Source: Nemertoderma westbladi
Lineage: Eukaryota; Animalia; Xenacoelomorpha
Assembly: GCA_032718475.1 (NCBI GenBank)
Contig: JAUCBJ010004680.1
Span: forward strand, 1-58,960
Direction: 5' to 3'
Length of the DNA stretch: 58,960 nucleotides
Within the stretch, counting starts at the first letter, position 1. Each line of letters opens with the position of its first letter. Position numbers and translations under genes: made by a program. The notes beneath the pieces were generated by a model. That model saw nothing but the letters and a program-made list of their open reading frames with translations. It searched no databases and was not told the origin of the DNA. This document shows, piece by piece, positions 4,281-38,276 of this stretch.

Positions 4281-4656
4281 CTGGAATGTAAATATAAATA
4301 GACCAATAAAAATGCCATAAATTAAACCACGACAATGTAAATGTAAACCTTTCCCGAGCGACGGCGGTTATGTAAACCTCTCTCGCTGCGCTCGCTCGGT
4401 ACATAAATACCATGGGGTAATATCATAACTATGAAAAGTGCAACTTTTTACACAATCAAGTAAATAGTTATAATAGAAAATTGGGATATTATTTTACTGC
4501 GACAATAAAGTATGTCAAGGATACTATTTTCAACATCCATTCCACCTTGAAACATAGTGTGGCAAAATAATATACGTAAACGAAAACCATCTCTACCGCT
4601 CTGTCATAGTTTGTAAAAGTAAATGAAGCGCAAAATAACGTAAACATAAAACTAAC

Positions 4657-4814
4657 CGAGCTGAGAATCTTTCAACTTCCTGTTGATGGGATTCCACTCG
4701 ACTCTTCATGTTCGTCTTCATTATCTCAATTTGTTCCTCGATCATCATCTGGAAGGATTCAGAAAGTATCTCAAACTTCTCCCATCTTGCAGACATTGCG
4801 CTCATTGCTTCAAT
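4657..4814 (-). CDS. DYNC2H1: DYNC2H1 exon (tail), IEAMSAMSARWEKFEILSESFQMMIEEQIEIMKTNMKSRVESHQQEVERFSAR
   Basis: Acceptor gtctccgtag|ATT GAA; donor GCT CG|gttagt. CG plus the first T of the next exon gives Arg and keeps the frame. Resembles the recalled dynein-2 segment WDKFELMMESHQLMIKDQIEVMKGNVKSR. Confidence 0.93.
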
Positions 4815-16304: not shown

Positions 16305-16487
16305 CCCGCCCCCTGCCACACTTCGGAGTAGTCTGTTTTTATCTTCAGCGAGTTTGAACTTAGCGAACATTTCAGCTTTCCTCGATGTGAGTTCCGAGTG
16401 CTTCCCATTGGCCAGTCCGATCTCCTGTATAGTCTGGGGTCGTTCCGATAGCAGGGTCAATCCTTCATCCACATAGCTTTCAATAGC
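16305..16487 (-). CDS. DYNC2H1: DYNC2H1 exon (tail), AIESYVDEGLTLLSERPQTIQEIGLAN...EDKNRLLRSVAGGG
   Basis: Acceptor tgtctttag|GCT; donor GGC GGG|gttagt; 183 nt, phase 0-0; contains the KNRLLR.VAGGG motif of dynein-2. Confidence 0.93.
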
Positions 16488-17141
16488 CTAAAGACATACA
16501 AGAAAACAACATGACGACCAGTCGTCCTGGCATGATGGCCCTAGCGGTCCGTGAATCAAGTCGTAAGAGACAGTACGAGTCAAGTGAAAGCTTTTTGTTC
16601 TGTCCGATAAATTAGTCTGAAAGTAGTCCCGGTGTACGAACAACAATTTTATACACAGCCTCAAACTATAATTATTTTGTTGTAATCATCTAATGAATTA
16701 TAACAGCTGTTGTGATTATAGAAGATAGAGAGCAGTTAGCGAAATGATTATTTGTTCTGTAGAGTAGTCGGAGAGTCGAGGTGTCAGTAGATTAATAATA
16801 ATAGTTGTTGTCATGAATTCAATACAATCACGCCAAAGAAGTAATAAGACAAATTCGTTCTTATTTTTGTAAATAAAACAAGTTGAGATGTTTCAATTTA
16901 AACCACGATTTAACATTTATATTAATTAAATACAACAATTATATTATTATTATAGCAGAGTACATTTAGTACACTTAGTACCCGATAGTCAACAGAAGTA
17001 CTTTGTCAAACTAAAATTCATTCAGCTGGCCAGCCACCTAACATAGCAGAGTGAGTAACCTTGTAGATATTCCCATAGGATTCACTGGAAAGAGCTATCT
17101 GCTGACGGGGTAGTACATTATAAAATAACAGTTGATGTTTG

Positions 17142-17221
17142 CTTACTGCCTGAGATAGAGTGAGAGAGTAAACACAACCTTACTGCCTGGGATAGAGTGA
17201 GAGACTAAACACAACCTTACT
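17142..17221. repeat. Two-copy 37-bp direct repeat (cttactgcctgrgatagagtgagagastaaacacaac)
   Basis: Two adjacent near-identical copies. Confidence 0.8.
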
Positions 17222-17662
17222 AAAACTTGACAAGTAAATATACTTATCTGCAGTTTGGGCCTATCGACTCATTAGCATTACTATAGGCCCTCACCCCTCA
17301 CTATCACTTTTTAATGAGCACCAGCTCGTGTTTCTATCATTGAGTCTATTAGAATATTCGTGTTTTGGGGCTATTTTTCGAAATTAAAAATGTGAGACGT
17401 TTCAATTGAAACCGTGATTTCACAAGTACCCATATAAATCTATTTTCATGGTTCATACAAAATTTCATCAAAATCGTTTTAGAGCCGTTTTTGCTCTAGG
17501 TCAGTAGCCAGTAGCCAGTAGTCAGTAGCTTTTTTTTTTTTTACAATAATCAAGTTAATTTAACGATAATATAAAATGGTGTAAAGCATTGATTTGTTTA
17601 CAGTTTATTCTTGGGTATTTATTTTTAAAACAATTATTGTGTATACATAACATCCGTAACTG

Positions 17663-20420
17663 CACCCATCCCCTAAACAACAGACCTGGTACCCACACCC
17701 ATCCCCTAAACAACAGACCTGGTACCCACACCCACCCCCTAAACAAACAACAGACCTGGTACCCACACCCATCCCCTCAAACAACAGATCTGGTACCCAC
17801 ACCCATCCCCTAAACAACAGACCTGGTACCCACACCCATCCCCTAAACAACAGACCTGGTACACACACCCATCCCCTAAACAACAGACCTGGTACCCACA
17901 CCCATCCCCTAAACAAACAACAGACCTGGTACCCACACCCATCCCCTCAAACAACAGACCTGGTACCCACACCCATCCCCTAAACAACAGACCTGGTACC
18001 CACACCCATCCCCTAAACAACAGACCTGGTACCCACACCCATCCCCTAAACAACAGACCTGGTACCCACACCCATCCCCTAAACAACAGACCTGGTACCC
18101 ACACCCATCCCCTAAACAACAGACCTGGTACCCACACCCATCCCCTAAACAACAGACCTGGTACCCACACCCATCCCCTAAACAAACAACAGACCTGGTA
18201 CCCACACCCATCCCCTAAACAACAGACCTGGTACCCACACCCATCCCCTAAACAAACAACAGACCTGGTACCCACACCCATCCCCTAAACAACAGACCTG
18301 GTACCCACACCCATCCCCTAAACAACAGACCTGGTACCCACACCCATCCCCTAAACAACAGACCTGGTACCCACACCCATCCCCTAAACAACAGACCTGG
18401 TACCCACACCCATCCCCTAAACAACAGACCTGGTACCCACACCCATCCCCTAAACAACAGACCTGGTACCCACACCCATCCCCTAAACAACAGACCTGGT
18501 ACCCACACCCATCCCCTAAACAACAGACCTGGTACCCACACCCATCCCCTAAACAACAGACCTGGTACCCACACCCATCCCCTAAACAACAGACCTGGTA
18601 CCCACACCCATCCCCTAAACAACAGACCTGGTACCCACACCCATCCCCTAAACAACAGACCTGGTACCCACACCCATCCCCTAAACAACAGACCTGGTAC
18701 CCACACCCATCCCCTAAACAACAGACCTGGTACCCACACCCATCCCCTAAACAACAGACCTGGTACCCACACCCATCCCCTAAACAACAGACCTGGTACC
18801 CACACCCATCCCCTAAACAACAGACCTGGTACCCACACCCATCCCCTAAACAACAGACCTGGTACCCACACCCATCCCCATTATAAACAACAGATCTGGT
18901 ACCCACACCCATCCCCTAAACAACAGACCTGGTACCCACACCCATCCCCTAAACAACAGACCTGGTACCCACACCCATCCCCTAAAACAACAGACCTGGT
19001 ACCCACACCCATCCCCTAAACAACAGACCTGGTACCCACACCCATCCCCTAAACAACAGACCTGGTACCCACACCCATCCCCTAAACAACAGACCTGGTA
19101 CCCACACCCATCCCCTAAACAACAGACCTGGTACCCACACCCATCCCCTAAACAACAGACCTGGTACCCACACCCATCCCCTAAACAACAGACCTGGTAC
19201 CCACACCCATCCCCTATAAACAACAGACCTGGTACCCACACCCATCCCCTAAACAACAGACCTGGTACCCACACCCATCCCCTAATAAACAACAGACCTG
19301 GTACCCACACCCATCCCCTAAACAACAGACCTGGTACCCACACCCATCCCCATTATAAACAACAGATCTGGTACCCACACCCATCCCCTAAAACAACAGA
19401 CCTGGTACCCACACCCATCCCCTAAACAACAGACCTGGTACCCACACCCATCCCCTAAACAACAGACCTGGTACCCACACCCATCCCCTAAACAACAGAC
19501 CTGGTACCCACACCCATCCCCTAAACAACAGACCTGGTACCCACACCCATCCCCTAAACAACAGACCTGGTACCCACACCCATCCCCTAAACAACAGACC
19601 TGGTACCCACACCCATCCCCTAAACAACAGACCTGGTACCCACACCCATCCCCTAAACAACAGACCTGGTACCCACACCCATCCCCTATTATAAACAACA
19701 GATCTGGTACCCACACCCATCCCCTAAACAACAGACCTGGTACCCACACCCATCCCCTAAACAACAGACCTGGTACCCACACCCATCCCCTAAACAACAG
19801 ACCTGGTACCCACACCCATCCCCTAAACAACAGACCTGGTACCCACACCCATCCCCTAAACAACAGACCTGGTACCCACACCCATCCCCTAAACAACAGA
19901 CCTGGTACCCACACCCATCCCCTAAACAACAGACCTGGTACCCACACCCATCCCCTAAACAACAGACCTGGTACCCACACCCATCCCCTAAACAACAGAC
20001 CTGGTACCCACACCCATCCCCTAAACAACAGACCTGGTACCCACACCCATCCCCTATAACAACAGACCTGGTACCCACACCCATCCCCTAAACAACAGAC
20101 CTGGTACCCACACCCATCCCCTAAACAACGGACCTGGTTACCCACACCCATCCCCTAAACAACAGACCTGGTACCCACACCCATCCCCTAAACAACAGAC
20201 CTGGTACCCACACCCATCCCCTAAACAACAGACCTGGCTGTACCCACACCCATCCCCTACAAACAACAGACCTGGTACCCACACCCATCCCCTAAACAAC
20301 AGAGCTGGTACCCACACCCATCCCCTAAACAACAGACCTGGTACCCACACCCATCCCCTAAACAACAGACCTGGTACCCACACCCATCCCCTAAACAACA
20401 GACCTGTCACCCATCCCCTA
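17663..20420. repeat. 33-bp minisatellite (acccacacccatcccctaaacaacagacctggt), ~83 copies
   Basis: Highly homogeneous tandem array ending ~16 bp from the exon donor at 20436/20437. Confidence 0.97.
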
Positions 20421-20436
20421 TCTATAACCTACTGAC

Positions 20437-20670
20437 CTGGCACCCATCTGCTATCGACTTTCTAAGACTGCCCATCAAAGCGTCATGTAGCTTCTGTATG
20501 TGGTCGTCTATGGCGAGATGAACCGGTAGACAGTTTACAACAATACAGTCTACTCGAATCTCGTGGGGCAGTTTCTCTGCGTCACGTCCGCGGGACTTAA
20601 TAGCTCGAAAGTTTTTCTCCCAATCGGAAACCTCAGACAGATTGCTCTCAATAAGGTCGTCAATGTCGAC
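20437..20670 (-). CDS. DYNC2H1: DYNC2H1 exon (tail), VDIDDLIESNLSEVSDWEKNFRAIKSRGRDAEKLP...SLRKSIADGCQ
   Basis: Acceptor ctttttacag|GTC; donor TGC CAG|gtcagt; 234 nt, phase 0-0; DWEKNF motif. Confidence 0.93.
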
Positions 20671-20887
20671 CTGTAAAAAGTAATAAAATATTATATTAAA
20701 ATAGTACATAGTCTAATAGTCTAAACAAATATTAAATATTGTCGTGACACACAAAGATAGTCCGCGGTATGAAATTATCCTGCCAAACATATTTGGATGG
20801 AATCACAGTGGATGCATTTTACTTATTATACTATTGGATCCATGATAGTAATCAACTGTTATCATTCAGGAAACCATACCAACTTAC

Positions 20888-21155
20888 TTGACCAATCACA
20901 ACCCAGTCGGCGAACTTATCCAAACAGTTCTCCAATCGGAACAAAAGATCTTCGGCCTTCTGATAGACGGCAGTGAAGCAGGAAGCGTTGCGTTCGATGA
21001 TGGATGGGAAGCAGACACCCGCCCCCGTCCCAGATACACCTCGGAAGTGTAGAGGAATACACATAAACTTCTTTAGGTCCCGGTAGTATTTGGCGCGGAT
21101 CTCCTCCAGAGGAGGTTTAAACTGTAAACGTCCTTGACGAAAAACCACGTCGACT
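20888..21155 (-). CDS. DYNC2H1: DYNC2H1 exon (tail), VDVVFRQGRLQFKPPLEEIRAKYYR...DWVVIGQ
   Basis: Acceptor ttttccaacag|A GTC; donor GGT CAA|gtaagt; QGRLQF.PP.EEIRAKYYR motif. Confidence 0.93.
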
Positions 21156-21390
21156 CTGTTGGAAAATAATAAATGTTGTAAAATAATATATCATACTTAA
21201 TGAGTAAACATAAAATAATGGATTAATAAAGGAAAAATAAAGGTAATTGTAATAAAAACTTTATATACATAAAAAAATATTATAATAATACGCCATGATG
21301 AATTTTCAAAATGTTCTAGAAAATGCCATGAAAGCCAATATTACAGCGTAGTTTACAATAATAAATTACAAACAACATTATAATTCCCAC

Positions 21391-21556
21391 CTTATCTCCG
21401 GTAAGTTCTCATTGAGTGACTCCAGACCCAACTGATACTGGTGCTCCAACACTTTATACAACTGCCTATCCCAATGTATCTTCCATGACATCATGTTGCT
21501 TTCCTTGAATCCTTGATTCTGCAGATCTTCCATAACGTGCCGGATATCCATTAAAC
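21391..21556 (-). CDS. DYNC2H1: DYNC2H1 exon (tail), GLMDIRHVMEDLQNQGFKESNMMSWKIHWDRQLYKVLEHQYQLGLESLNENLPEIR
   Basis: Acceptor gtaaaatag|GT TTA; donor ATA AG|gtggga; HW..QLYK.LEHQYQ.GLE.LNENLPEI motif. Not in the ORF track. Confidence 0.92.
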
Positions 21557-21831: not shown

Positions 21832-22389
21832 CTTCCACCCATTTCGGGAGTTGAATGGGTTTATCCACTCCATACCTACTAAATATATCTTTAGTAGGTC
21901 ATGTCCACTCACCTTCCACCCATTTCGGGAGTTGAATGCGTTTATCCACTCCATACCTACTAAAGATATCTTTAGTAGGTCATGTCCACTCACCTTCCAC
22001 CCATTTCGGGAGTTGAATGGGTTTATCCACTCCATACCTACTAAAGATATCTTTAGTAGGTCATGTCCACTCACCTTCCACCCATTTCGGGAGTTGAATG
22101 CGTTTATCCACTCCATACCTACTAAAGATATCTTTAGTAGGTCATGTCCACTCACCTTCCACCCATTTCGGGAGTTGAATGGGTTTATCCACTGCATACC
22201 TACTAAAGATATCTTTAGTAGGTCATGTCCACTCACCTTCCACCCATTTCGGGAGTTGAATGCGTTTATCCACTCCATACCTACTAAAGATATCTTTAGT
22301 AGGTCATGTCCACTCACCTTCCACCCATTTCGGGAGTTGAATGCGTTTATCCACTCCATACCTACTAAAGATATCTTTAGTAGGTCATG
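21832..22389. repeat. 81-bp tandem repeat, ~7 copies, each with a 26-bp palindrome (perfect except one mismatch in the leftmost copy)
   Basis: Unit ccttccacccatttcgggagttgaatgsgtttatccactccatacctactaaagatatctttagtaggtcatgtccactca. Confidence 0.96.
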
Positions 22390-22445
22390 GATTTATCAAC
22401 TCTCCTTCCTCCCATATCGGCAGTTTAATGGATTCATCAACTTAC

Positions 22446-22620
22446 CTTCCTTCCATTTAGGCAGTTGTCTTAGTAAATCGACCCCGATCAGCTGAACAAC
22501 ACGGTCACAGATATCGAAGTGGCATTTCCTGAGTCGTCTGTTATCCGTGGTCAGTCGGTCTGCCGATTTCTGAAGTTTGTCGATGTAGGTCTCCAGTTGT
22601 TCGGGGTTGTCCCAGGTTAC
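22446..22620 (-). CDS. DYNC2H1: DYNC2H1 exon (tail), VTWDNPEQLETYIDKLQKSADRLTTDNRRLRKCHFDICDRVVQLIGVDLLRQLPKWKE; the most 5' exon found in the window
   Basis: Acceptor ctttatccag|GTA ACC TGG; donor GAA G|gtaag; TWDNP..LE.YI.KLQ and DLLRQ motifs. Not in the ORF track. Confidence 0.92.
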
Positions 22621-23079
22621 CTGGATAAAGATATACGTGTTTAGTATATTTAAAATTTATTAAGTATAAATAGGAGCGCTTTCTTACACGCCGACCCAGT
22701 AGTGATGTATAGCTTGCCGAGCGAGTGGGATAAATAATACATGTACGAGTCGCAAGGGAAATAATGCTATATATTATGTAAAACGTAATTTTATTCTTAT
22801 TATTGCCTTTCCTCCTCTCGAATTCACTGAAAATTCGCGTCTTGGTTATCCATGTTACGCGTAAACACTATGTACGGACCCACCGTGGCAATAAGCAGCA
22901 AACATTTATAGGGCATATACGTATATATTATATGCCCAACAAAGTATATCGTACATACTGGATGCAATCGGAATTAAACTGTTTTCATTGTAAAATATAC
23001 GCTTATTACAGCTTATTCCGAGCAACAATTAAACTGTAACAATGTATTAATATACTATGAATCACATGCAACAGTAACC

Positions 23080-23505
23080 TGCTCCTTTATCTTAATATGT
23101 AAGTCATGGGGTGCCCAGTCCACCATGCTTATTTTCCCCATGGCGATGGGTTGCCAAAGCACTAGAGCCCTTCAGGCTAGTCAGTCCTCACGGCGAACGA
23201 AAGCAATGTCCTTCAAAGGGAAGGGAGGTATCACCTCCACAATGTTGTATAGTCTGATTGGAGTTGTGTTCTTTGTACTTGACACAATGAACCCGGCGTA
23301 GCACCAGCATGTACTCACATAAATCAGTACTAGTTCTACTGCTGCCCTAAATAATGAAACCTTGGGATTCCGTTTTTTTCTATTATTATAACTTTTTTTG
23401 GCAAAGCATTGCAAAGTCGTCAATGACGTACAGGTGGGATCGAACTGGTGACCTCCGGGTTGGAAGTCTGATGCTCTAACCATGGGACTAACCCTGGGGA
23501 GGCTA
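23080..23505 (-). mobile_element. Probable tRNA-derived SINE (head ~23503-23430; 3' boundary uncertain)
   Basis: The minus strand reads ...tagtcccatggttagagcatcagacttccaacccggaggtcaccagttcgatcccacctg. This has A-box-like and B-box-like (GTTCGATCCC) pol III elements at tRNA-like spacing, but no intact cloverleaf. Confidence 0.5.
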
Positions 23506-23871
23506 TTCAATGCTGCCCATGCCGGTTCTCATACTTACTCAATCAGACTGAGATTTTAATATAGTTAGAGCTTCGTAGACTTAGTAATGCGCAATGGAAC
23601 CATAACGTGTTGTTTTAACTCGATTCGGTAGAGTAAATCACGTTCTGTACTATATTGTTGATCCAATAGAACAATAACGCTCTAAACAAACCGAACTTGT
23701 TTAAATCCGTACGAATTTCAGGTTCTGATAAAAAGGGCACCTTTCCCACAACGCTAGGGTTGCCTAATCAAGCAAATTAGTACCACATTCGTCAGGGTGT
23801 CTGTCCCCTGTAACGACATGTACCCTGTATTGGGTTTGTTTGTCATTCAGTCACTTTGGATCGATTCATAG

Positions 23872-24050
23872 GGTTGGGTGAATTCTTAGCCCGCGAGTAT
23901 TCTTAGCCCGCGGGTATTCTTAGCCCGCGAGTTAGTAAAGGTGCAGGTTTCATAAGCGTATTGGGGGAACCAAAACAATAAACGTTATTGTTTTGCGGGC
24001 TAAGAATGCCCACGGCTAAGAATACTCGCGGGCTAAGAATTCCTGAGATC
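23872..24050. mobile_element. MITE/foldback-like element with internally repeated inverted arms and candidate 8-bp target-site duplication attcatag
   Basis: gaattcttagcccgcgagtattcttagcc (from 23880) is the exact reverse complement of ggctaagaatactcgcgggctaagaattc (ending 24042). attcatag occurs at 23864-23871 and 24051-24058. Confidence 0.7.
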
Positions 24051-24319
24051 ATTCATAGCCTATTGAATACGATACAAAGATATGATACTGTTGAATACGA
24101 TACAAAGACATGATACGTTGAATACGTTATTATTTATATTTATATTACAATTAACTATACAGCTTGCCAACACATTGTTACTATCATTTATATTTATAAA
24201 AATCGATTAGTAGTGGAGTTTCTGTGTTGTAATATAATAAATTAATTAAATATTATAAGAAATATATTTGGAAATGGCAATAATTACAAACATAATAAAT
24301 CTCACATATTAACAATTAT

Positions 24320-24490
24320 ATTATTAAATAGCATTAATTATTAACATTATTAAATAGGATTAATTATTAACATTATTAAATAGCATTAATTATTAACATT
24401 ATTAAATAGCATTAATTATTAACATTATTAAATAGGATTCCTTTATTCAGTTAATTATTAACATTATTAAATAGGATTCCTTTATTCAGT
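24320..24490. repeat. AT-rich ~26-bp tandem repeat (attaattattaacattattaaatags) in the 3' UTR/flank of the nested gene
   Basis: About 5-6 copies; the last two carry a tttatt (minus-strand AATAAA) extension. Confidence 0.8.
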
Positions 24491-24518
24491 TTTCATTTAT
24501 TACAAGGTTACACCGGTT

Positions 24519-25865
24519 CTATTGTTTTTTATCTTGACATTTGAAGTGAGTATCCATAACGAATAAGCTCAAGGCGCACAGAATAACAAAAAATGACGTC
24601 AGAAAGGCAGTGAGAGCGCCTAGTGGCCATTTAACGTCATAGACCTGAAAGCAAACCGAAACGCCAATCATTATGATGTATAACGAGCAGAAAATAACGA
24701 ACAAAGCGAGGCGATTCCTTAGCAGCCGAGACACACCGACCCAAATCTTAGACCGAGATAAATAGGTTACAAACAAAAGAAGGAGCCCCAGAACAGTGTA
24801 CTCGATAACTGGAATACGAATAACTTCGGTTAGCCGTAGAAAGTAGGATTCGCCAGGTTTCTGTAGGAATTTATATGAGATGAGAGTGGCGGTGGTAAAA
24901 CTAAGTGGCATAATCCACCGGCATAAATGTAAGTTTCTTTTAATAAATGGAATTGTAAAGATTTGAGTGAAAGAGAAAATAAAGAAAAATCCAAAAAAGA
25001 ACATTGGCCAGAAAACGATAGGGCCGCCTGTCTGATAAGCGACGATTCCAGAATGTATAGTGACCCACGATTCTAGGAAGACTCGCCAATACGGGTTGAG
25101 ATGCACTCTAGTGTAAGCGAGACTACCTTGTAACATTATAGTGTAGGTGTGTACCACGCCGCCAAAATGGCCCACAGTGTTCTCCATCGGGTGGTACCAG
25201 AACGTGTAGACAGAGGCCCACATAAAGGCGTACCCATGGTAACGTCTCAGTACTCTAGTCCCGTACGCAGTAGCGGCAGTTAACGCGGGGGATGAACCCA
25301 GGAGGAAACCTCTGGATGGGTATTCCATAGCGAGAACGAATATTAGAAGCATTATAACGGAGGACTGGCTGCTCGCGATAGAAACATCCTGAGCTAACCC
25401 GTCGTAGAATAAATGAGTGTGAATTAAATGAAGACAATGGAAGATGACATTGACGGCGAATAGACGGAAGTTAAACAAACGGTAACTCCCGATGTACTTC
25501 GTCGGTGGATGCTGCGATTGAGCGCCGTACAGGATCAACCAGTTGGCTAGGAGATGGGTTGTAAACAGGGCCCATACGGAGACTCTGCTACCGATAGTGA
25601 CTCGAGACGGGGGCAGCTTCCAGTAGTACCAACGGGCCTCGCGGTCCAGGCCGTGTCTGCCCACCGCTCCGGGCCCCTCGTCCAGGCTCGGTTCCGGGAG
25701 GAACCGATCTCTCGAGGTTCTACTGGCGTTGTGGACCCATCCCGAATCGGCGTCCCATCCCCGCCAACCACCCACGCTGAATATTGCGACGCATAACAGC
25801 AGTAAGTAGACAATGCCCAAACCCCAACCGAGTATGTCTTGTCGAATTCCCGATTTATAATCCAT
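24519..25865 (-). CDS. Intronless 448-aa multi-pass membrane protein of unknown function (His/Trp-rich), nested in a DYNC2H1 intron on the same strand
   Basis: Uninterrupted 1347-nt non-repetitive ORF with higher GC than its AT-rich flanks and a good Kozak context (acaATGG). About ten hydrophobic segments. Motifs WYYWKLP, HTHLFYDGLAQDVS..SSQ.SVI, YHGY, YTFWYHPME, LQGSL..TR.H.N and WPMFFFGF. AATAAA signals lie downstream on the minus strand (~24441-24446, 24481-24486). Confidence 0.88.
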   Translation of the reverse strand: MDYKSGIRQDILGWGLGIVYLLLLCVAIFSVGGWRGWDADSGWVHNASRTSRDRFLPEPSLDEGPGAVGRHGLDREARWYYWKLPPSRVTIGSRVSVWALFTTHLLANWLILYGAQSQHPPTKYIGSYRLFNFRLFAVNVIFHCLHLIHTHLFYDGLAQDVSIASSQSSVIMLLIFVLAMEYPSRGFLLGSSPALTAATAYGTRVLRRYHGYAFMWASVYTFWYHPMENTVGHFGGVVHTYTIMLQGSLAYTRVHLNPYWRVFLESWVTIHSGIVAYQTGGPIVFWPMFFFGFFFIFSFTQIFTIPFIKRNLHLCRWIMPLSFTTATLISYKFLQKPGESYFLRLTEVIRIPVIEYTVLGLLLLFVTYLSRSKIWVGVSRLLRNRLALFVIFCSLYIIMIGVSVCFQVYDVKWPLGALTAFLTSFFVILCALSLFVMDTHFKCQDKKQ

Positions 25866-26932
25866 TGTTACCGGTACAAACTAATTATAATGTACTAACT
25901 AATAATTAATTAATAATAAATTAATATTTTTTAATTCTTTTATTATTTAATTAATAATAATTAATCAAGGAGATAGCTGTAAGGCTGTAATACAAATTAG
26001 CTGCATATGGTCCCTATTCCAGTCGCTTCCAATCAACTAGAAAGCCAGCAAGCTGGCTGGAAGGAGCCCGGGGGAAGAAGCCTATTAAAAGACTATTACA
26101 AATAAACCTTGTCGGTCAGCAGTAAGTAAACTAAACAATTGTCTAAACTATAAGGCGTGGGGCTAGCTGACTTTGTGGCTCGTCCCACATAATAAAAAAT
26201 GAAACTTTGCTATGACAACACACCCGGTTCATTTAAATTTGCGTGATTTGCGTTTTATGCTCGCACTCCTATTTGTAAGAAATGTTAAAACTTATCTTAC
26301 AGTATGCCAATGTAGTAATGGTATTAAAATATAATTAAATTAATTTACACTATTAATGCTTCAGCTAAGAAATGATGCTAATCCTATGTAATAATAATTA
26401 CAAACAACTGCTATCCTGCTATGTATTGGTACATGGAAAAAAAAACAACTTCAAACACGAGCATAACTGTAACAGAAGCCGCCATGAACAGCAGGTGGTG
26501 ACGTTACCAGAAAAGCGAAATATACAATTTTAATTTACTGGGCACTACTGGCCAGTACAGTTGTTACCAGTACTGCCATATACTATGTAAATGTAAATAA
26601 AATTGCACACGCAGGAAGGGATGGGACCTTTGATCTTTACATTCTACAGTGTTATCACCAACAATTTAAGACTATCATCAGACACGGCCTTCTAAACAAT
26701 CCCTATTTATTTCCAATTTAGCTATTCCTCAACGACATTAAACGGATGGAACGGCAACGGGTGGAATCCATGCACGGCGAGATTTGCCATAGTAGGCCTA
26801 CTTACAAATCTCGAATAATAAAGGTAACGGTAGTGTAACTGGTATTAACTATATCGACAGATAGAGCTTTTTTAAACGCTTGTAGTTTATGATTGAAAGC
26901 AAAAATAAAAATGCTAATTGAAAAAATAAACA

Positions 26933-29900
26933 CAGCACCAACAACCCACAGTACATACAAACCACAGCACGTACCACCCACAGGCCACAGCACCTACAAC
27001 CCGCATCACCTATAACACACAGCACCTACAACCCGCATCACCTTCAACCCTCAGCACCTACAACACACAGCACCTACAACCCGCATCACCTTCAACTCTC
27101 AGCACCTACACCACGGAGCCCCTACAACCCACAGCACCTACAACACACAGCACCTACACCACGCAGCCCCTACAACCCACAGCACCTACAACACACAGCA
27201 CCTACAACCCGCATCACCTTCAACCCTCAGCTCCTACACCATACATCACCTACAACACACAGCACCTACAACCCGCATCACCTTCAACCCTCAGCACCTA
27301 CAACCCGCATCACCTACAACCCGCATCACCTTCAACCCTCAGCACCTACACCACGCAGCACCTACAACCCGCATCACCTACAACACACAGCACCTACAAC
27401 CCGCATCACCTACAACCCGCATCACCTACAACACACAGCACCTACAACCCGCATCACCTTCAACCCTCAGCACCTACAACACACAGCACCTACAACCCGC
27501 ATCACCTTCAACCCTCAGCACCTACACCACGCAGCCCCTACAACCCACAGCACCTACAACACACAGCACCTACACCACGCAGCACCTACAACCCACAGCA
27601 CCTACAACACACAGCACCTACAACCCGCATCACCTTCAACCCTCAGCACCTACACCACGCAGCCCCTACAACCCACAGCACCTACAACACACAGCACCTA
27701 CACCACGCAGCACCTACAACCCGCATCACCTACAACACACAGCACCTACAACCCGCATCACCTACAACCCGCATCACCTACAACACACAGCACCTACAAC
27801 CCGCATCACCTTCAACCCTCAGCACCTACAACACACAGCACCTACAACCCACAGAACCTACAACACACAGCACCTACACCACGCAGCACCTACAACCCAC
27901 AGCACCTACAACACACAGCACCTACAACCCGCATCACCTTCAACCCTCAGCACCTACACCACGCAGCCCCTACAACCCACAGCACCTACAACACACAGCA
28001 CCTACACCACGCAGCCCCTACAAGCCACAGCACCTACAACACACAGCACCTACAACCCGCATCACCTTCAACCCTCAGCACCTACACCACGCAGCCCCTA
28101 CAACCCACAGCACCTACAACGCACAGCACCTACAACACACAGCACCTACACCACGCAGCCCCTACAACCCACAGCACCTACAACACACAGCACCTACACC
28201 ACGCAGCACCTACAACCCGCATCACCTACAACACACAGCACCTACAACCAGCATCACCTTCAACCCTCAGCACCTACAACACACAGCACCTACAACCCGC
28301 ATCACCTTCAACCCTCAGCACCTACACCACGCAGCCCCTACAACCCACAGCACCTACAACACACAGCACCTACACCACGCAGCACCTACAACCCACAGCA
28401 CCTACAACACACAGCACCTACAACCCGCATCACCTTCAACCCTCAGCACCTACACCACGCAGCCCCTACAACCCACAGCACCTACAACACACAGCACCTA
28501 CACCACGCAGCACCTACAACCCGCATCACCTACAACACACAGCACCTACAACCAGCATCACCTACAACCCGCATCACCTACAACACACAGCACCTACAAC
28601 CCGCATCACCTTCAACCCTCAGCACCTACAACACACAGCACCTACAACCCGCATCACCTTCAACCCTCAGCACCTACACCACGCAGCCCCTACAACCCAC
28701 AGCACCTACAACACACAGCACCTACACCACGCAGCACCTACAACCCACAGTACCTACAACACACAGCACCTACAACCCGCATCACCTTCAACCCTCAGCA
28801 CCTACACCACGCAGCCCCTACAACCCACAGCACCTACAACACACAGCACCTACACCACGCAGCCCCTACAAGCCACAGCACCTACAACACACAGCACCTA
28901 CAACCCGCATCACCTTCAACCCTCAGCACCTACACCACGCAGCCCCTACAACCCACAGCACCTACAACACACAGCACCTACACCACGCAGCCCCTACAAG
29001 CCACAGCACCTACAACACACAGCACCTACAACCCGCATCACCTTCAACCCTCAGCACCTACACCACGCAGCCCCTACAACGCACAGCACCTACAACACAC
29101 AGCACCTACACCACGCAGCCCCTACAACCCACAGCACCTACAACACACAGCACCTACACCACGCAGCACCTACAACCCGCATCACCTACAACACACAGCA
29201 CCTACAACCCGCATCACCTTCAACCCTCAGCACCTACAACACACAGCACCTACAACCCGCATCACCTTCAACCCTCAGCACCTACACCACGCAGCCCCTA
29301 CAACCCACAGCACCTACAACACACAGCACCTACACCACGCAGCACCTACAACCCACAGCACCTACAACACACAGCACCTACAACCCGCATCACCTTCAAC
29401 CCTCAGCACCTACAACACGCAGCCCCTACAACCCACAGCACCTACAACACACAGCACCTACACCACGCAGCCCCTACAAGCCACAGCACCTACAACACAC
29501 AGCACCTACAACCCGCATCACCTTCAACCCTCAGCACCTACACCATACATCACCTACAACCCGCATCACCTTCAACTCTCAGCACCTACACCACGCAGCC
29601 CCTACAACCCACAGCACCTACAACACACAGCACCTACACCACGCAGCCCCTACAAGCCACAGCACCTACAACACACAGCACCTACAACCCGCATCACCTT
29701 CAACCCTCAGCACCTACACCATACATCACCTACAACCCGCATCACCTTCAACCCTCAGCACCTACAACACACAGCACCTACAACCCGCATCACCTTCAAC
29801 ACACAGCATCTACACCACGCAGCCCCTACAACCTACAGCACCTACAACACACAGCACCTACACCACGCAGCCCCTACAACCCACAGCACCTACAACACAC

Positions 29901-32900
29901 AGCACCTACACCACGCATCCCCTACAACCTACAGCACCTACAACACACAGCACCTACACCACGCAGCCCCTACAACCCACAGCACCTACAACACACAGCA
30001 CCTACACCACGCATCCCCTACAACCCACAGCACCTACAACACACAGCACCTACAACCCGCATCACCTTCAACACACAGCATCTACACCACGCAGCCCCTA
30101 CAACCTACAGCACCTACAACACACAGCACCTACACCACGCAGCCCCTACAACCCACAGCACCTACAACACACAGCACCTACACCACGCAGCACCTACAAC
30201 CCGCATCACCTACAACACACAGCACCTACAACCCGCATCACCTACAACCCGCATCACCTACAACACACAGCACCTACAACCCGCATCACCTTCAACCCTC
30301 AGCACCTACAACACACAGCACCTACAACCCACAGAACCTACAACACACAGCACCTACACCACGCAGCACCTACAACCCACAGCACCTACAACACACAGCA
30401 CCTACAACCCGCATCACCTTCAACCCTCAGCACCTACACCACGCAGCCCCTACAACCCACAGCACCTACAACACACAGCACCTACACCACGCAGCCCCTA
30501 CAAGCCACAGCACCTACAACACACAGCACCTACAACCCGCATCACCTTCAACCCTCAGCACCTACACCACGCAGCCCCTACAACCCACAGCACCTACAAC
30601 GCACAGCACCTACAACACACAGCACCTACACCACGCAGCCCCTACAACCCACAGCACCTACAACACACAGCACCTACACCACGCAGCACCTACAACCCGC
30701 ATCACCTACAACACACAGCACCTACAACCCGCATCACCTTCAACCCTCAGCACCTACAACACACAGCACCTACAACCCGCATCACCTTCAACCCTCAGCA
30801 CCTACACCACGCAGCCCCTACAACCCACAGCACCTACAACACACAGCACCTACACCACGCAGCACCTACAACCCACAGCACCTACAACACACAGCACCTA
30901 CAACCCGCATCACCTTCAACCCTCAGCACCTACACCACGCAGCCCCTACAACCCACAGCACCTACAACACACAGCACCTACACCACGCAGCACCTACAAC
31001 CCGCATCACCTACAACACACAGCACCTACAACCAGCATCACCTACAACCCGCATCACCTACAACACACAGCACCTACAACCCGCATCACCTTCAACCCTC
31101 AGCACCTACAACACACAGCACCTACAACCCGCATCACCTTCAACCCTCAGCACCTACACCACGCAGCCCCTACAACCCACAGCACCTACAACACACAGCA
31201 CCTACACCACGCAGCACCTACAACCCACAGTACCTACAACACACAGCACCTACAACCCGCATCACCTTCAACCCTCAGCACCTACACCACGCAGCCCCTA
31301 CAACCCACAGCACCTACAACACACAGCACCTACACCACGCAGCCCCTACAAGCCACAGCACCTACAACACACAGCACCTACAACCCGCATCACCTTCAAC
31401 CCTCAGCACCTACACCACGCAGCCCCTACAACCCACAGCACCTACAACACACAGCACCTACACCACGCAGCCCCTACAAGCCACAGCACCTACAACACAC
31501 AGCACCTACAACCCGCATCACCTTCAACCCTCAGCACCTACACCACGCAGACCCTACAACGCACAGCACCTACAACACACAGCACCTACACCACGCAGCC
31601 CCTACAACCCACAGCACCTACAACACACAGCACCTACACCACGCAGCACCTACAACCCGCATCACCTACAACACACAGCACCTACAACCCGCATCACCTT
31701 CAACCCTCAGCACCTACAACACACAGCACCTACAACCCGCATCACCTTCAACCCTCAGCACCTACACCACGCAGCCCCTACAACGCACAGCACCTACAAC
31801 ACACAGCACCTACACCACGCAGCACCTACAACCCACAGCACCTACAACACACAGCACCTACAACCCGCATCACCTTCAACCCTCAGCACCTACAACACGC
31901 AGCCCCTACAACCCACAGCACCTACAACACACAGCACCTACACCACGCAGCCCCTACAAGCCACAGCACCTACAACACACAGCACCTACAACCCGCATCA
32001 CCTTCAACCCTCAGCACCTACACCATACATCACCTACAACCCGCATCACCTTCAACTCTCAGCACCTACACCACGCAGCCCCTACAACCCACAGCACCTA
32101 CAACACACAGCACCTACACCACGCAGCCCCTACAAGCCACAGCACCTACAACACACAGCACCTACAACCCGCATCACCTTCAACCCTCAGCACCTACACC
32201 ATACATCACCTACAACCCGCATCACCTTCAACCCTCAGCACCTACAACACACAGCACCTACAACCCGCATCACCTTCAACACACAGCATCTACACCACGC
32301 AGCCCCTACAACCTACAGCACCTACAACACACAGCACCTACACCACGCAGCCCCTACAACCCACAGCACCTACAACACACAGCACCTACACCACGCATCC
32401 CCTACAACCTACAGCACCTACAACACACAGCACCTACACCACGCAGCCCCTACAACCCACAGCACCTACAACACACAGCACCTACACCACGCATCCCCTA
32501 CAACCCACAGCACCTACAACACACAGCACCTACAACCCGCATCACCTTCAACACACAGCATCTACACCACGCAGCCCCTACAACCTACAGCACCTACAAC
32601 ACACAGCACCTACACCACGCAGCCCCTACAACCCACAGCACCTACAACACACAGCACCTACACCACGCATCCCCTACAACCCACAGCACCTACAACACAC
32701 AGCACCTACAACCCGCATCACCTTCAACCCTCAGCACCTACAGCACACAGCACCTACACCACGCATCCCCTACAACCCACAGCACCTACAACACACAGCA
32801 CCTACAACCCGCATCACCTTTAACCCTCAGTACCTACACCACGCAGCCCCTACAACCCACAGCACCTACAACACACAGCACCTACACCACACAGCCCCTA

Positions 32901-33770
32901 CAACCCACAGCTCCTACAACACACAGCACCTACACCACGCATCCCCTACAACCCACAGCACCTACAACACACAGCACCTACACCACGCAGCCCCTACAAC
33001 CCACAGCACCTACAACACACAGCACCTACACCACGCATCCCCTACAACCCACAGCACCTACAACACACAGCACCTACAACCCGCATCACCTTCAACCCTC
33101 AGCACCTACAGCACACAGCACCTACACCACGCATCCCCTACAACCCACAGCACCTACAACACACAGCACCTACAACCCGCATCACCTTTAACCCTCAGTA
33201 CCTACACCACGCAGCCCCTACAACCCACGGCACCTACAACACACAGCACCTACACCACACAGCCCCTACAACCCACAGCACCTACAACACACAGCACCTA
33301 CACCACGCATCCCCTACAACCCACAGCACCTACAACACACAGCACCTACAACCCGCATCACCTTCAACCATCAGCACCTACAACACACAGCACCTACACC
33401 ACGCATCCCCTACAACCCACAGCACATACAACACACAGCACCTACAACCCGCATCACCTTCAACCCTCAGCACCTACAACACACAGCACCTACACCACGC
33501 AGCCCCTACAACCCACAGCACCTACAACACACAGCACCTACAACCCCCATCACCTTCAACCATCAGCACCTACAACCCGCATCACCTACAACCCGCATCA
33601 CCTTCAACCCTCAGCACCTACAACACACAGCACCTACACCACGCATCCCCTACAACCCACAGCACCTACAACACACAGCACCTACAACCCCCATCACCTT
33701 CAACCATCAGCACCTACAAGCTACAACACACAGCACTTACAACCCACAACACAAGACATAGAGCACCTAC
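26933..33770. repeat. 16-bp CA-rich minisatellite (cacctacaacacacag and variants), ~6.8 kb, ~425 copies
   Basis: Strict 16-bp period with a small set of recurring variants (cacctacaacccgcat, caccttcaaccctcag, cacctacaccacgcag, cccctacaacccacag). Confidence 0.97.
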
Positions 33771-34007
33771 AATTTTTAACACAAAACTTTTATTTAACTT
33801 TTTTTAGACCAATTTTAAACTTTATCTTAAACTTTATCACTGACCAGATAATAAATCATGCATATATATAATGATGAGTTCACTAACTAAATTGTCTAAT
33901 AATATACTGAGAGCCAGAGTGGGTATTAGATATTGCCTTAACCACAGGGGTTAATAACCATGGCTTTGTGAATTAAGCCCCAGGTAGTATAATAGATTCC
34001 ACCTGAA

Positions 34008-35023
34008 ATAAACGGTTTGTCTGGCAGTTCGAGAGTAGTAGAGGGTGCAACAAGTGGTTTGTCTGGTAGTTTGAGGGTAGTAGAGGGTGCAACAAGTGGT
34101 TTGTCTGGTAGTTTGAGGGTACAATAAACGGTTTGTCTGGCTGATTCGGAATATTCTTTATCATCACCATCTTTATAGTCTACTTGCAAGCAATAAATAA
34201 CCAGAAACATCTGTATCTTCTATCTTCAAGTGACTTTAAAAAATCTTTAAAGTTGACAAATTATCGTCGTCTTGTACTTTCAGAATAAGGCAGGCCTAAA
34301 ATTGTGACAAGATAAAATGTTATATTATATTATATATATTTAATTCACCGTCTCTCACCATAATTCATTTTTATTAGTGATGTGATCCCATTGAATGGTC
34401 TGGTCAGTGGAAGTGAACTGCCAGACTAACCGTTTATTGCACCCTCTAACTAACTGCCAGACAAACCGTTTATGCACCCTCTAACTGCCAGACTAACCGT
34501 TTAACAAACCTCTAACTCCCAGACAAACCGTTTATGCACCCTCTAACTCCCAGACAAACCGTTTATGCACCCTCTAACTGCCAGACAAACCGTTTATTGC
34601 ACACTCTAACTGCTAGACAAACCGTTTATGCACCCTCTAACTGCCAGACTAACCGTTTAACAAACCTCTAACTCCCAGAAAAACCGTTTATGCACCCTCT
34701 AACTCCCAGACAAACCGTTTATGCACCCTCTAACTGCCAGACAAACCGTTTATTGCACACTCTAACTGCCCGACAAACCGTTTATGCACCCTCTAACTGC
34801 CAGACAAACCGTTTATTGCACCCTCTAACTGCCAGACAAACCGTTTATGCACCCTCTAACTCCCAGACAAACCGTTTATGCACCATCTAACTGCCAGACT
34901 AACCGTTTAACAAACCTCTAACTCCCAGACAAACCGTTTATGCACCCTCTAACTCCCAGACAAACCGTTTATGCACCATCTAAATGCCAGACTAACCGTT
35001 TAACAAACCTCTAACTCCCAGAC
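34008..35023. repeat. 31-bp repeat (aactgccagacaaaccgtttatgcaccctct) in two oppositely oriented blocks: ~34008-34142 (reverse) and ~34417-35023 (forward, ~19 copies)
   Basis: The left block reads aaacggtttgtctggcagtt...agagggtgcaa, the reverse complement of the right-block unit. Confidence 0.88.
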
Positions 35024-35296
35024 TTTAAATTAGACCAAATTTTAATGAAATAGCTTGAAATTTGAAACAGAGATAGTTTCACCTCCCTCCTCCTTGCTGG
35101 GTGAGCCAGAATTTTTATTTTTGCCTTCATTCTTTAGCTACAAGCGTTTGAAAAAAGTGTCTCCGGTGATATTGCGCCAGTTACACTCCAGTTATTCTTC
35201 AACCGTATAGTGATTTGTTGGTACTGATAGAAAGCTGACCGTACAAGGATTCCAAATAATTATGTATCACAATCTGAATTTCGTCGTAAAACAGCA

Positions 35297-35554
35297 GAGA
35301 TATGAGCATTCTAAAGTTGCATGGTTTTACACCTGCACAAGGATATTTTATTATATTAAAAAAATCCACCATATTCTAGAACATGTTGTTTATCCCATAC
35401 GTAGCTGGGCAACAATGTAGTAACTCTGTAATCATACTATTGCGTAGCTATTGGTACATAAACAAAGTGTTCTAGAATAGGGATTATTAATTAAATAGAA
35501 TAAAATAGCCTCGCGCAGATGCGAAATCATTTAACATTTGAACGCTCATATCTC
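35297..35554. mobile_element. Degenerate long inverted repeat (old MITE/foldback), arms ~95 bp
   Basis: gagatatgagcattc...tattctagaacatgttgtttat pairs imperfectly with ataaacaaagtgttctagaata...gaacgctcatatctc. Confidence 0.65.
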
Positions 35555-35926
35555 AGCTATTATCTCAGCTTTCTGTTTACGTTACTGAGATACATTTAAT
35601 AATGTTTATTTCAATTCCAGTAATAAAAATATAATATAAATAAATATTAATGGTATATTAATACCCCCCCCCCCCCCCCCCCCCGACCCCCCCTCATAAA
35701 ATTTCACGCCCCATTATTATTCTAGCACTCCACAATGAAACCCTTTTAGAAATGTTTGATTGCTACACACACCACGGGTAACTGTAACTGCTCAATAAAA
35801 AAAATAATTGTAAAGGCGAAAGTATTTTATTTAATATTAGGGTGTTATTTAGCCGAGTTAAGTAAACATCTGAAAATAAAGCTCCCGGGTAAAATAACTG
35901 GTTAATAATATAGTAATAGATACGTT

Positions 35927-38133: not shown

Positions 38134-38276
38134 AAATGTCCAGTGTATCTTAGACATAATCATTTCCGCAGCTGCAATCTCCGCAATTTTACGCTCAGGT
38201 GACAAACGGTAGATGTATATTCTAATTGGATTACCGTTTTATTTGCTTAAGTGCAACCTGTAGTGATATTCCGTGG

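What the first reader, a model, noticed from the sequence alone, without database searches (positions are those of the whole stretch)
24519..25865. Intronless His-rich membrane-protein gene nested on the same strand inside the dynein intron; possible bacterial origin or retrogene
Seen: an intact 448-aa ORF with no introns, between repeat blocks, in the same orientation as DYNC2H1. About 700 N-terminal dynein residues are still missing upstream, so the ORF should be intronic. Same-strand nesting is less common than antisense nesting, and the host transcript must read through the nested gene's poly(A) signals. The motifs (WYYWKLP, YDGLAQDV, YHGY, YTFWYHPME, WPMF) recall, from memory and unverified, an uncharacterised membrane family found in bacteria and patchily in eukaryotes. 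The many histidines in or near the membrane segments suggest a haem- or metal-binding enzyme (inference).
Basis: partly seen in the sequence, partly recalled or inferred. Interest (0 to 1): 0.7.

Follow-up and report, generated by a model that had tools for sequence, protein, structure and literature searches.

The report
Unnamed membrane enzyme nested in dynein
An intact, uninterrupted gene for a predicted 12-helix membrane protein of an unnamed family (shared by marine invertebrates, other eukaryotes and bacteria) lies on the same strand inside what is very likely a giant dynein-2 intron; it was likely inherited from animal ancestors rather than taken from bacteria, and it likely works as a membrane redox enzyme fed by cytochrome b5.

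Summary
The 448-aa ORF (25865-24519, minus strand) is real and keeps 61 of 65 conserved family positions. DYNC2H1 residues 1-661 are absent from the window. However, the 41-bp satellite filling 38277-58960 reads GDKVQ|GTGGGT, the expected end and phase-0 donor of the missing upstream exon (0 of 5000 shuffles match as well), so nesting in a >36-kb intron is very likely. Same-strand, intronless nesting is a known pattern.

Recent bacterial origin is not supported. The best hits are 16 marine invertebrate species, the protein carries a luminal loop typical of animals and two extra helices that bacteria lack, and relatives have introns. An AU test alone did not reject a position next to bacteria (p=0.12). 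Retrogene origin is untested.

The family has no Pfam or NCBIfam model and no clear solved relative. Seven histidines are conserved in two predicted clusters across the membrane. Seven of 144 representatives are fused to cytochrome b5, two of them also to its reductase. 28 of 152 prokaryotic loci lie near CarH-type regulator, photolyase or lycopene cyclase genes. Best reading: a b5-fed, likely haem-binding membrane oxidoreductase acting on lipids or isoprenoids; substrate and cofactor are inferred only.

The parts
24519..25865 (-). Nested ORF, 448 aa (P0001), predicted 12 membrane helices; conserved H104, H146, H210, H225, H233, H255, H271, D155, R185, Q246, E265
24442..24501 (-). Three AATAAA hexamers 17-77 nt downstream of the stop, candidate poly(A) signals of the nested gene; use untested
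25881..25882 (-). In-frame (phase 0) AG 15 nt before the ATG; possible acceptor for a 5' exon, but weak (rank 60 of 336 intronic AG)
22621..58960 (-). DYNC2H1 intron that holds the ORF, at least 36,340 bp, runs off the window
38277..58960 (-). 41-bp satellite, 502.5 copies, 95% matches; the unit reads GDKVQ|GTGGGT, likely the amplified 3' end and donor of the missing upstream DYNC2H1 exon ('mirage' type)
22446..22620 (-). DYNC2H1 exon directly downstream of the nested gene; starts VTWDNP in phase 0 (reference residue 662)
21832..22445 (-). 81-bp array copied from the donor of exon 22620-22446 (internal control for donor-derived satellites)
   Evidence: best match to that donor, 0 of 300 shuffles
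17663..20406 (-). 33-bp array copied from the donor of exon 20670-20437 (internal control)
   Evidence: best match to that donor, 1 of 300 shuffles
16305..21556 (-). Four DYNC2H1 exons: 21556-21391, 21155-20888, 20670-20437, 16487-16305
2..4814 (-). DYNC2H1 exon 4814-4657 and a single exon of at least 4279 bp (4280-2) encoding the linker and motor region

Best explanation
The ORF is an intact member of an unnamed membrane-protein family, likely inherited vertically within animals and likely moved into a giant DYNC2H1 intron in this lineage, and it likely encodes a membrane oxidoreductase that takes electrons from cytochrome b5. Shown: the ORF, its family, seven conserved histidines, b5 and b5-reductase fusions in relatives, and the donor-like satellite. 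Inferred: N- and C-termini face the cytosol (12 helices). NAD(P)H passes electrons through a b5 reductase and b5, separate proteins in this animal, to a cytosol-side site (H210/H255 with R185, Q246), likely a haem b. From there they would cross the membrane along helices 5 and 7 to a luminal site (H225/H271 with H233, H104, H146, D155) that reduces or modifies a lipid or isoprenoid substrate. The gene would have its own promoter and poly(A) site inside the intron, and the dynein pre-mRNA would splice over it. Rough odds by step: nested 0.9, vertical animal gene 0.9, b5-linked redox protein 0.65, two-site haem wire 0.4.
For: Nesting: the 41-bp unit reads GDKVQ|GTGGGT on the dynein strand (403 of 502 copies encode GDKVQ), and the next exon starts VTWDNP in phase 0. 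The 32 invertebrate references end in words such as DGKVQ, GDRVQ and GDSVQ. Score 14.9; reached by 0 of 5000 shuffles and 0 of 820 GT sites in unmasked sequence. Two other arrays in the window copy the donor they abut. Ancestry: the top 35 hits (235-371 bits) include 19 named proteins of 16 marine invertebrate species; the best named bacterium has 228 bits over 63% of the query. Loop 32-79 has 20-29 of 48 identities with 16 of 18 named animal rows, while prokaryote-type rows, except P0290, align at most 15 positions. Helices 11-12 are absent from prokaryote-type rows, except a hydrolase-fused one. Full-length trees place the query among animals (26-row clade, SH-aLRT 96; sister to Ptychodera 97/94). 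Genomic relatives carry canonical splice sites (L081, L082, L085, L095, L123). In 9 of 9 species listed with both proteins from comparable records, the two contig lengths differ, so the nesting looks derived. Function: H210, H225 and R185 are invariant in 146 of 146 rows; H104, H146, H233, H255 and H271 in 93-99%. Loop charge alternates cleanly over 11 loops, and loop 1-2 has an N-glycosylation sequon in 33 of 33 animal-type rows against 591 of 5000 random 45-mers. Cytochrome b5 is fused in 7 of 144 representatives, at either end, all with HPGG and the second His; two also carry FAD- and NAD-binding domains. 28 of 152 prokaryotic loci have a MerR+B12 regulator, photolyase or lycopene cyclase within the flank.
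Against: The upstream dynein exon itself is outside the window and no genome is held. The satellite test was made after a lead from earlier AI notes, and only 2 of the 9 other satellite units tested match a neighbouring junction. The AU test did not reject query+bacteria (p 0.121) or animals without the query (p 0.077). Named animals plus query have only 62/86 support. The core-domain tree put the query beside long-branch unnamed rows instead of animals, and its animal sister changes between trees. Codon usage correlates less with the dynein exon (r 0.22) than dynein blocks do with each other (0.39-0.56). 137 of 144 representatives have no b5 domain, and H146 is replaced in three b5-fused rows. 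The 9 named loci with light-response neighbours are all Chloroflexota (9 of 44 such loci), so they are not independent, and no random-gene control was run. I could not see model coordinates, so His pairing rests on topology and spacing only.
Confidence: 0.55

Rival explanations
1. Same gene history, but the protein is a non-haem metal enzyme: the luminal and mid-membrane histidines with D155/E265 bind a di-iron or similar centre that desaturates or hydroxylates a lipid, fed by cytochrome b5 as in fatty acid desaturases and sterol desaturases.
For: b5 and b5-reductase fusions are typical of that class (established knowledge). Five His plus D155 fall on the luminal half. Lipid and isoprenoid enzymes recur among neighbours (DUF1295, short-chain dehydrogenases, lycopene cyclase).
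Against: No HxxHH-type box among the conserved histidines. In the known class the His boxes face the same side as b5 (recalled), whereas here most conserved His are predicted on the opposite side.
Confidence: 0.2
2. The protein is not an electron carrier: it is a zinc-dependent lipid hydrolase like the CREST group (alkaline ceramidase, adiponectin receptor), or a haem-handling or transport protein, and the b5 fusions are incidental.
For: Most members stand alone (137 of 144 without b5). Neighbours include alpha/beta hydrolases and MFS transporters, and one member is fused to a hydrolase. The top, non-significant match of the core model is the haem-handling CcsBA (Z 7.3, rmsd 5.7, 172 aligned).
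Against: b5 fusions occur at both ends, and two members carry a complete reductase-b5 chain. Conserved His lie on both membrane faces. The CcsBA Z is tied with unrelated helical bundles.
Confidence: 0.15
3. The gene reached the intron as a retrocopy of a parent elsewhere in the genome. This concerns the route and is compatible with the best explanation; the alternative route is DNA-level relocation of an already intron-poor gene.
For: No coding intron, while animal-type genomic relatives have 1-2. The location looks derived.
Against: Relatives already hold 350-490 codons in one exon. The host carries a 4279-bp dynein exon, suggesting general intron loss. No poly(A) run follows the ORF. The parent could not be sought.
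Confidence: 0.35
4. Recent horizontal transfer from a bacterium into this lineage.
For: No coding intron; core identity to bacteria (up to 124 identities over 261 aligned positions) is close to that to animals (up to 143 over 286); the loop after R185-G186 is shorter than in other animals; the AU test did not reject query+bacteria.
Against: The animal-type luminal loop with its glycosylation sequon and the two C-terminal helices cannot come from the bacterial form. All best hits are eukaryote-type. The long branch matches the host's fast rate (dynein branch 0.65 against a median of 0.15).
Confidence: 0.03
5. The ORF is not nested: the dynein gene is truncated, or the assembly is joined wrongly within the satellites.
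For: No upstream exon in 36 kb; most of the interval is tandem repeat.
Against: The satellite at the far end carries the missing exon's end on the right strand and in the right phase. The seven exons present are intact. An 11.5-kb repeat-filled intron occurs in the same gene.
Confidence: 0.07

Closest known systems
Same-strand nested intronless genes (Drosophila survey, Assis 2016, PMC5174743; passages read)
   Same: Small internal gene without coding introns in a long intron of a large host gene, same strand; the paper finds intronless genes over-represented in same-strand nestings (71.5%).
   Different: The host intron is over 36 kb and mostly tandem repeat; the internal gene belongs to an old family rather than being a recognisably young duplicate.
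'Mirage' minisatellites of amphioxus (PMC3087553; passages read)
   Same: Tandem copies of an exon-intron boundary next to the real junction; three donor-type arrays occur in this gene.
   Different: Over 500 copies and more than 20 kb, against 3-6 units in BflGb6; here the array serves as a marker for an exon outside the window.
Transmembrane di-haem electron carriers (ferric reductase/NOX/STEAP, MsrQ, cytochrome b561, cytochrome b; features recalled)
   Same: Two parallel helices each with two His 15-16 residues apart (H210/H225, H255/H271), an invariant Arg on the cytosolic side, and a link to NAD(P)H/FAD input in fused members.
   Different: No Pfam match; 10-12 helices; three further conserved His and an Asp on the luminal half; electron input apparently through cytochrome b5; structural scores stay in the non-specific range (STEAP2 Z 5.6, rmsd 5.6, 165 aligned; complex III chains Z 5.7-7.4, rmsd 4.1-6.5, 148-157 aligned).
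Cytochrome b5-fused membrane desaturases and hydroxylases (FADS, FA2H, sterol desaturases; features recalled)
   Same: Membrane-embedded, His-rich, fused at either end to an HPGG-type b5 in some members.
   Different: No HxxHH or HxxxH boxes among the conserved residues; many more helices; His on both faces.
UniRef label 'Serine active site containing 1-like protein' on bacterial members
   Same: Same sequence family.
   Different: No hydrolase domain in the family core; only one fused member (P0296) has one. The label looks like a propagated annotation (inference).

Membership tests
Same-strand nested gene | Whole gene lies between two exons of a host gene on the same strand | tested here: inconclusive
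   Downstream exon at 22620 shown. The upstream exon is outside the window; its amplified end and donor are at 38277-58960. Strongly indicated, not directly seen.
Same-strand nested gene | Own transcript separate from the host mRNA | not testable with these tools
   No run was available to lay on the locus.
Recent bacteria-to-animal horizontal transfer | Closest relatives bacterial, absent from other animals | tested here: not met
   19 named proteins of 16 animal species outrank all bacteria; animal-type loop and C-terminal helices are present.
Recent bacteria-to-animal horizontal transfer | Tree nests the gene among bacteria | tested here: inconclusive
   None of three trees does, but the AU test did not reject query+bacteria (p 0.121).
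Retrogene | Introns of a parent gene are missing | tested here: inconclusive
   Relatives have 1-2 introns at differing positions; the host also shows a very long dynein exon.
Retrogene | Genomic poly(A) remnant or target-site duplication | tested here: inconclusive
   No poly(A) run downstream and no flanking direct repeat pair; old retrogenes lose both.
Retrogene | Intron-bearing parent elsewhere in the genome | not testable with these tools
   No genome held.
Mirage minisatellite (41-bp array) | Unit spans an exon-intron boundary of the gene it lies in | tested here: met
   GDKVQ|GTGGGT on the dynein strand, phase 0; 0 of 5000 shuffles and 0 of 820 GT sites score as high.
Mirage minisatellite (41-bp array) | Array abuts the real junction | not testable with these tools
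   The array runs off the window; met for the 33-bp and 81-bp arrays.
Transmembrane di-haem cytochrome b-type carriers | Two His pairs on two parallel helices, one pair per membrane face | tested here: inconclusive
Transmembrane di-haem cytochrome b-type carriers | Shared fold or family profile | tested here: inconclusive
   Best Z 7.4 (rmsd 6.5, 157 aligned) and 7.3 (rmsd 5.7, 172 aligned), under the tool's mark.
Transmembrane di-haem cytochrome b-type carriers | Bound haem b, redox-active | not testable with these tools
   Needs purified protein.
Membrane di-iron desaturases/hydroxylases | Three His boxes (HxxxH, HxxHH, HxxHH/QxxHH) | tested here: not met
   Conserved His are isolated: 104, 146, 210, 225, 233, 255, 271.
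Membrane di-iron desaturases/hydroxylases | Coupling to cytochrome b5 | tested here: inconclusive
   Fusion in 7 of 144 representatives; not in this protein; physical coupling not shown.
CREST hydrolases (PAQR, alkaline ceramidase) | Seven-helix fold with SxxxH and HxxxH zinc motifs | tested here: inconclusive
   Motifs not evident among conserved columns; adiponectin receptors appear only at Foldseek E about 1.

The most novel reading that the evidence does not exclude
The family is an unrecognised class of transmembrane oxidoreductase with its own fold: an NADH to b5 reductase to b5 chain feeds a haem wire and a luminal multi-histidine site that modifies carotenoids or related isoprenoid lipids. 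It serves the light-stress gene clusters of Chloroflexota and was kept by marine invertebrates, where it would be a candidate for carotenoid conversions whose enzymes are unassigned (that gap is recalled, not checked here).
Probability: 0.12. Interest if true: 0.75.

Novelty: new variant of a known kind. Interest (0 to 1): 0.42.

Why it matters
The arrangement that drew attention, an intronless gene nested on the same strand, is ordinary, and the transfer idea fails. Two things remain useful. First, a family found in bacteria, archaea (Atlas clusters), other eukaryotes and at least 16 marine invertebrate species, with no Pfam or NCBIfam model and no clear solved relative, now has a testable function: one bacterial member or one self-contained reductase-b5-membrane fusion (P0340) can be assayed for haem and NADH-driven reduction. 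Second, junction-derived satellites in this genome can mark exons that lie beyond a window or an assembly gap.

Tried and rejected
Family and structure searches: Pfam found nothing for the ORF; NCBIfam gave one sub-threshold hit; PDB sequence search found nothing with the protein and only E>=0.07 with a profile. Foldseek gave no match at E<=0.001 in PDB (full model) or BFVD (core model). VIA-align gave no Z>=8; a weak match shows neither a different nor a new fold. The Atlas gave only unnamed or 'Serine active site' clusters for P0002 and no usable named hit for P0038.

Complex prediction of P0329's b5 domain with its membrane domain and haem returned no answer (score 0.13, mark 0.34); it is evidence neither way. 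No RNA holder was listed for the ORF, so expression and splicing were not examined.

A chimeric splice from the upstream dynein donor (phase 0) to the in-frame AG at 25881 was considered. That AG scores -0.23, rank 60 of 336, under a model built on only 7 acceptors; not supported, not excluded.

Seven of the nine other satellite units tested did not match any dynein junction in the window. ARAGORN found no tRNA; Rfam over 22600-38300 gave one sub-threshold hairpin.

Trees: the 89-row core tree was quick only and had long-branch warnings; 39 rows (long branches, composition outliers, near-duplicates) were dropped, and 15 more; the mixture-model careful searches did not finish. The host could not be placed beyond a long-branched bilaterian.

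Literature: searches for two motifs and four locus tags, a b5-fused uncharacterised family, nesting in dynein and CarH clusters in Chloroflexi returned no paper; some searches were seen as listings only. The library lacks most subscription papers and no supplements were read, so a description of the family may exist unseen.

Full report
Observation. The ORF runs from ATG 25865 to a stop at 24519 on the minus strand and gives 448 aa without interruption. Seven DYNC2H1 exons lie downstream on the same strand; with canonical splice sites they read 1821 aa without a stop and match reference residues 662-2479 at 64%. No exon for residues 1-661 was found in the remaining 36 kb. No genome is held for this window.

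Is it nested? Earlier AI notes on this genome reported giant introns built from copies of splice junctions, a kind known from amphioxus as 'mirages' (PMC3087553, passages read). I took this as a lead and tested it here. The 41-bp satellite at 38277-58960 (502.5 copies) reads GGT GAC AAA GTA CAG | GTGGGT on the dynein strand, that is GDKVQ followed by a donor. The first exon in the window starts VTWDNP in phase 0, and 32 invertebrate DYNC2H1 references have words such as DGKVQ, GDRVQ or GDSVQ just before that point. The match was reached by 0 of 5000 shuffled units with five codons (at most 1 of 5000 with three, four or six) and by 0 of 820 GT sites in unmasked minus-strand sequence. As internal controls, the 33-bp and 81-bp arrays match the donors they abut (1 and 0 of 300 shuffles); seven other units match no junction. 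The simplest reading is that the missing exon lies just past the window and the ORF sits in an intron of at least 36,340 bp. The exon itself was not seen.

Is the arrangement unusual? In D. melanogaster 71.3% of nestings are opposite-strand, and 71.5% of same-strand internal genes are intronless (PMC5174743, passages read). The window has 22 AATAAA on the minus strand, three of them just after the ORF and three in other dynein introns. Reading through such hexamers is routine for long genes (recalled).

Origin. Of 1445 hits among 7998 candidates, 120 were listed. The top 35 include 19 named proteins from 16 echinoderm, hemichordate, amphioxus, tunicate, brachiopod, mollusc, annelid, nemertean and bryozoan species. 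The best named bacterium follows at 228 bits over 63% of the length. No vertebrate, arthropod, nematode or cnidarian name appears among the listed rows; this is not proof of absence. The query shares with animals a luminal loop (20-29 of 48 identities with 16 of 18 named rows) and, with eukaryote-type rows, two C-terminal helices; prokaryote-type rows lack both, with single exceptions. The core-only tree placed it on the eukaryote-type side but beside long unnamed branches. Full-length trees placed it among animals, next to Owenia (50 of 89 rows) or Ptychodera (35 rows). AU tests rejected neither query+bacteria (p 0.121) nor animals without the query (p 0.077), so the trees support but do not prove the animal position; the shared loop is the stronger character. 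The host's dynein is itself a long branch among bilaterians, which accounts for the divergence. GC and GC3 are close to the dynein exon's (0.48/0.54 against 0.50/0.60), though the codon-usage correlation is lower than within dynein. Of 80 metagenome loci, 8 looked eukaryotic and were examined; five show splice signals in or next to the coding region, for example a 0.5-kb GT-AG intron at G32 in L082 and a donor near residue 337 in L081, while the animal-type loci L081 and L082 keep 350-490 codons in one exon (introns inferred from DNA only). Lack of introns therefore says little. In 9 of 9 species with comparable records the family gene and DYNC2H1 have different contig lengths (Apostichopus left out as likely from different assemblies), so the nesting is probably specific to this lineage. 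Retroposition and DNA-level relocation cannot be told apart here.

The protein. It keeps 61 of 65 strongly conserved columns. AlphaFold gives pLDDT 93.9 and pTM 0.93 with about twelve long helices; the core alone gives 94.2. Net charge alternates over all eleven loops, and loop 1-2 carries a sequon in 33 of 33 animal-type rows (background 12%), which sets both termini in the cytosol. On that topology H210, H255, R185 and Q246 are cytosol-side; H225, H233, H146 and D155 are luminal; H271 and H104 lie in the middle to outer half (inference). H210/H225 and H255/H271 lie 15 and 16 residues apart along two parallel helices, the layout of di-haem carriers (recalled).

Guilt by association. Among 144 newly listed 50%-identity representatives (of 433 found), seven carry a cytochrome b5 domain, five N-terminal and two C-terminal. 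Two of them (P0340, P0345) also carry FAD- and NAD-binding domains, a complete electron chain on one polypeptide. In 152 prokaryotic loci the recurrent neighbours are an MFS transporter (19), a MerR+B12 regulator (18; CarH/LitR type, described as a light-sensing carotenoid regulator in the abstract of PMC6739363, listing only), a DUF1731 epimerase (16), a molybdenum oxidoreductase (16), AhpC (14), photolyase (9), Staygreen (8) and lycopene cyclase (4), besides a small regulator seen mostly in actinomycete loci (20). Regulator, photolyase or cyclase occur in 28 of 152. All named ones are Chloroflexota, so this is a hint to a light or oxidative-stress lipid context and not an independent count.

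Mechanism. Most likely the protein is a membrane oxidoreductase. Electrons would pass from NAD(P)H through b5 reductase and b5 to a cytosol-side haem, then to a luminal multi-His site that acts on a lipid or isoprenoid. The fusions and conserved residues are shown; cofactor, geometry and substrate are inferred. Rivals are a b5-fed non-haem metal enzyme and a non-redox hydrolase or haem-handling protein.

Verdict. Observation confirmed; nesting very likely; bacterial transfer not supported; retrogene open. The genomic arrangement is a known kind. The value lies in a first testable function for an unnamed family and in using a junction-derived satellite to locate a missing exon. Interest 0.42.

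Noticed in passing
window 2-4280 (-): A single DYNC2H1 exon of at least 4279 bp covers the linker and motor region, while upstream exons are 158-268 bp; suggests 3'-biased intron loss (vertebrate DYNC2H1 has many small exons, recalled).
   Followed up: partly
window 23880-24042: 163-bp element with perfect 29-nt terminal inverted repeats and internal 17-nt repeats, MITE-like; it gives the sub-threshold Rfam hairpin hit.
   Followed up: partly
window 34004-35034 and 35290-35561: Foldback-like stretch of 31- and 42-bp units in inverted orientation, and a 104-nt inverted repeat at 77%.
   Followed up: no
window about 23380-23500 (-): Stretch with tRNA-like A and B boxes seen by eye, possibly a SINE; ARAGORN and Rfam found nothing there.
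   Followed up: partly
window 26931-33719, 5859-16227, 35927-38134: Large satellites (16/48/128-bp higher-order, 30-66-bp, 35-bp) that match no dynein junction in the window; the first is rich in AG|GT words on the minus strand and yields spurious ORFs of up to 2313 aa on the plus strand.
   Followed up: partly
P0340, P0345: Three-part fusions b5 + FAD/NAD reductase + family domain, with H146 and D155 replaced; good stand-alone assay targets.
   Followed up: partly
P0325, P0329, P0340, P0345, P0293, P0380 in the tree: These b5-fused members group with prokaryote-type sequences, apart from the animal-containing clade, hinting at more than one entry of the family into eukaryotes (long branches; unsure). 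A named fungal member (Chlamydoabsidia, P0420) appears.
   Followed up: no
L027, L033, L040, L047 and L012, L022, L029, L035: A molybdenum-cofactor oxidoreductase with a 2Fe-2S subunit lies next to the family gene in 16 of 152 loci, in both actinomycetes and Chloroflexota.
   Followed up: partly
L081:880-920, L085:150-170: Two echinoderm-like loci have an in-frame AG 5 and 14 codons before the RQD-type motif, similar to the weak AG 12 codons before it in the window; the nested gene may have an unseen 5' exon.
   Followed up: partly
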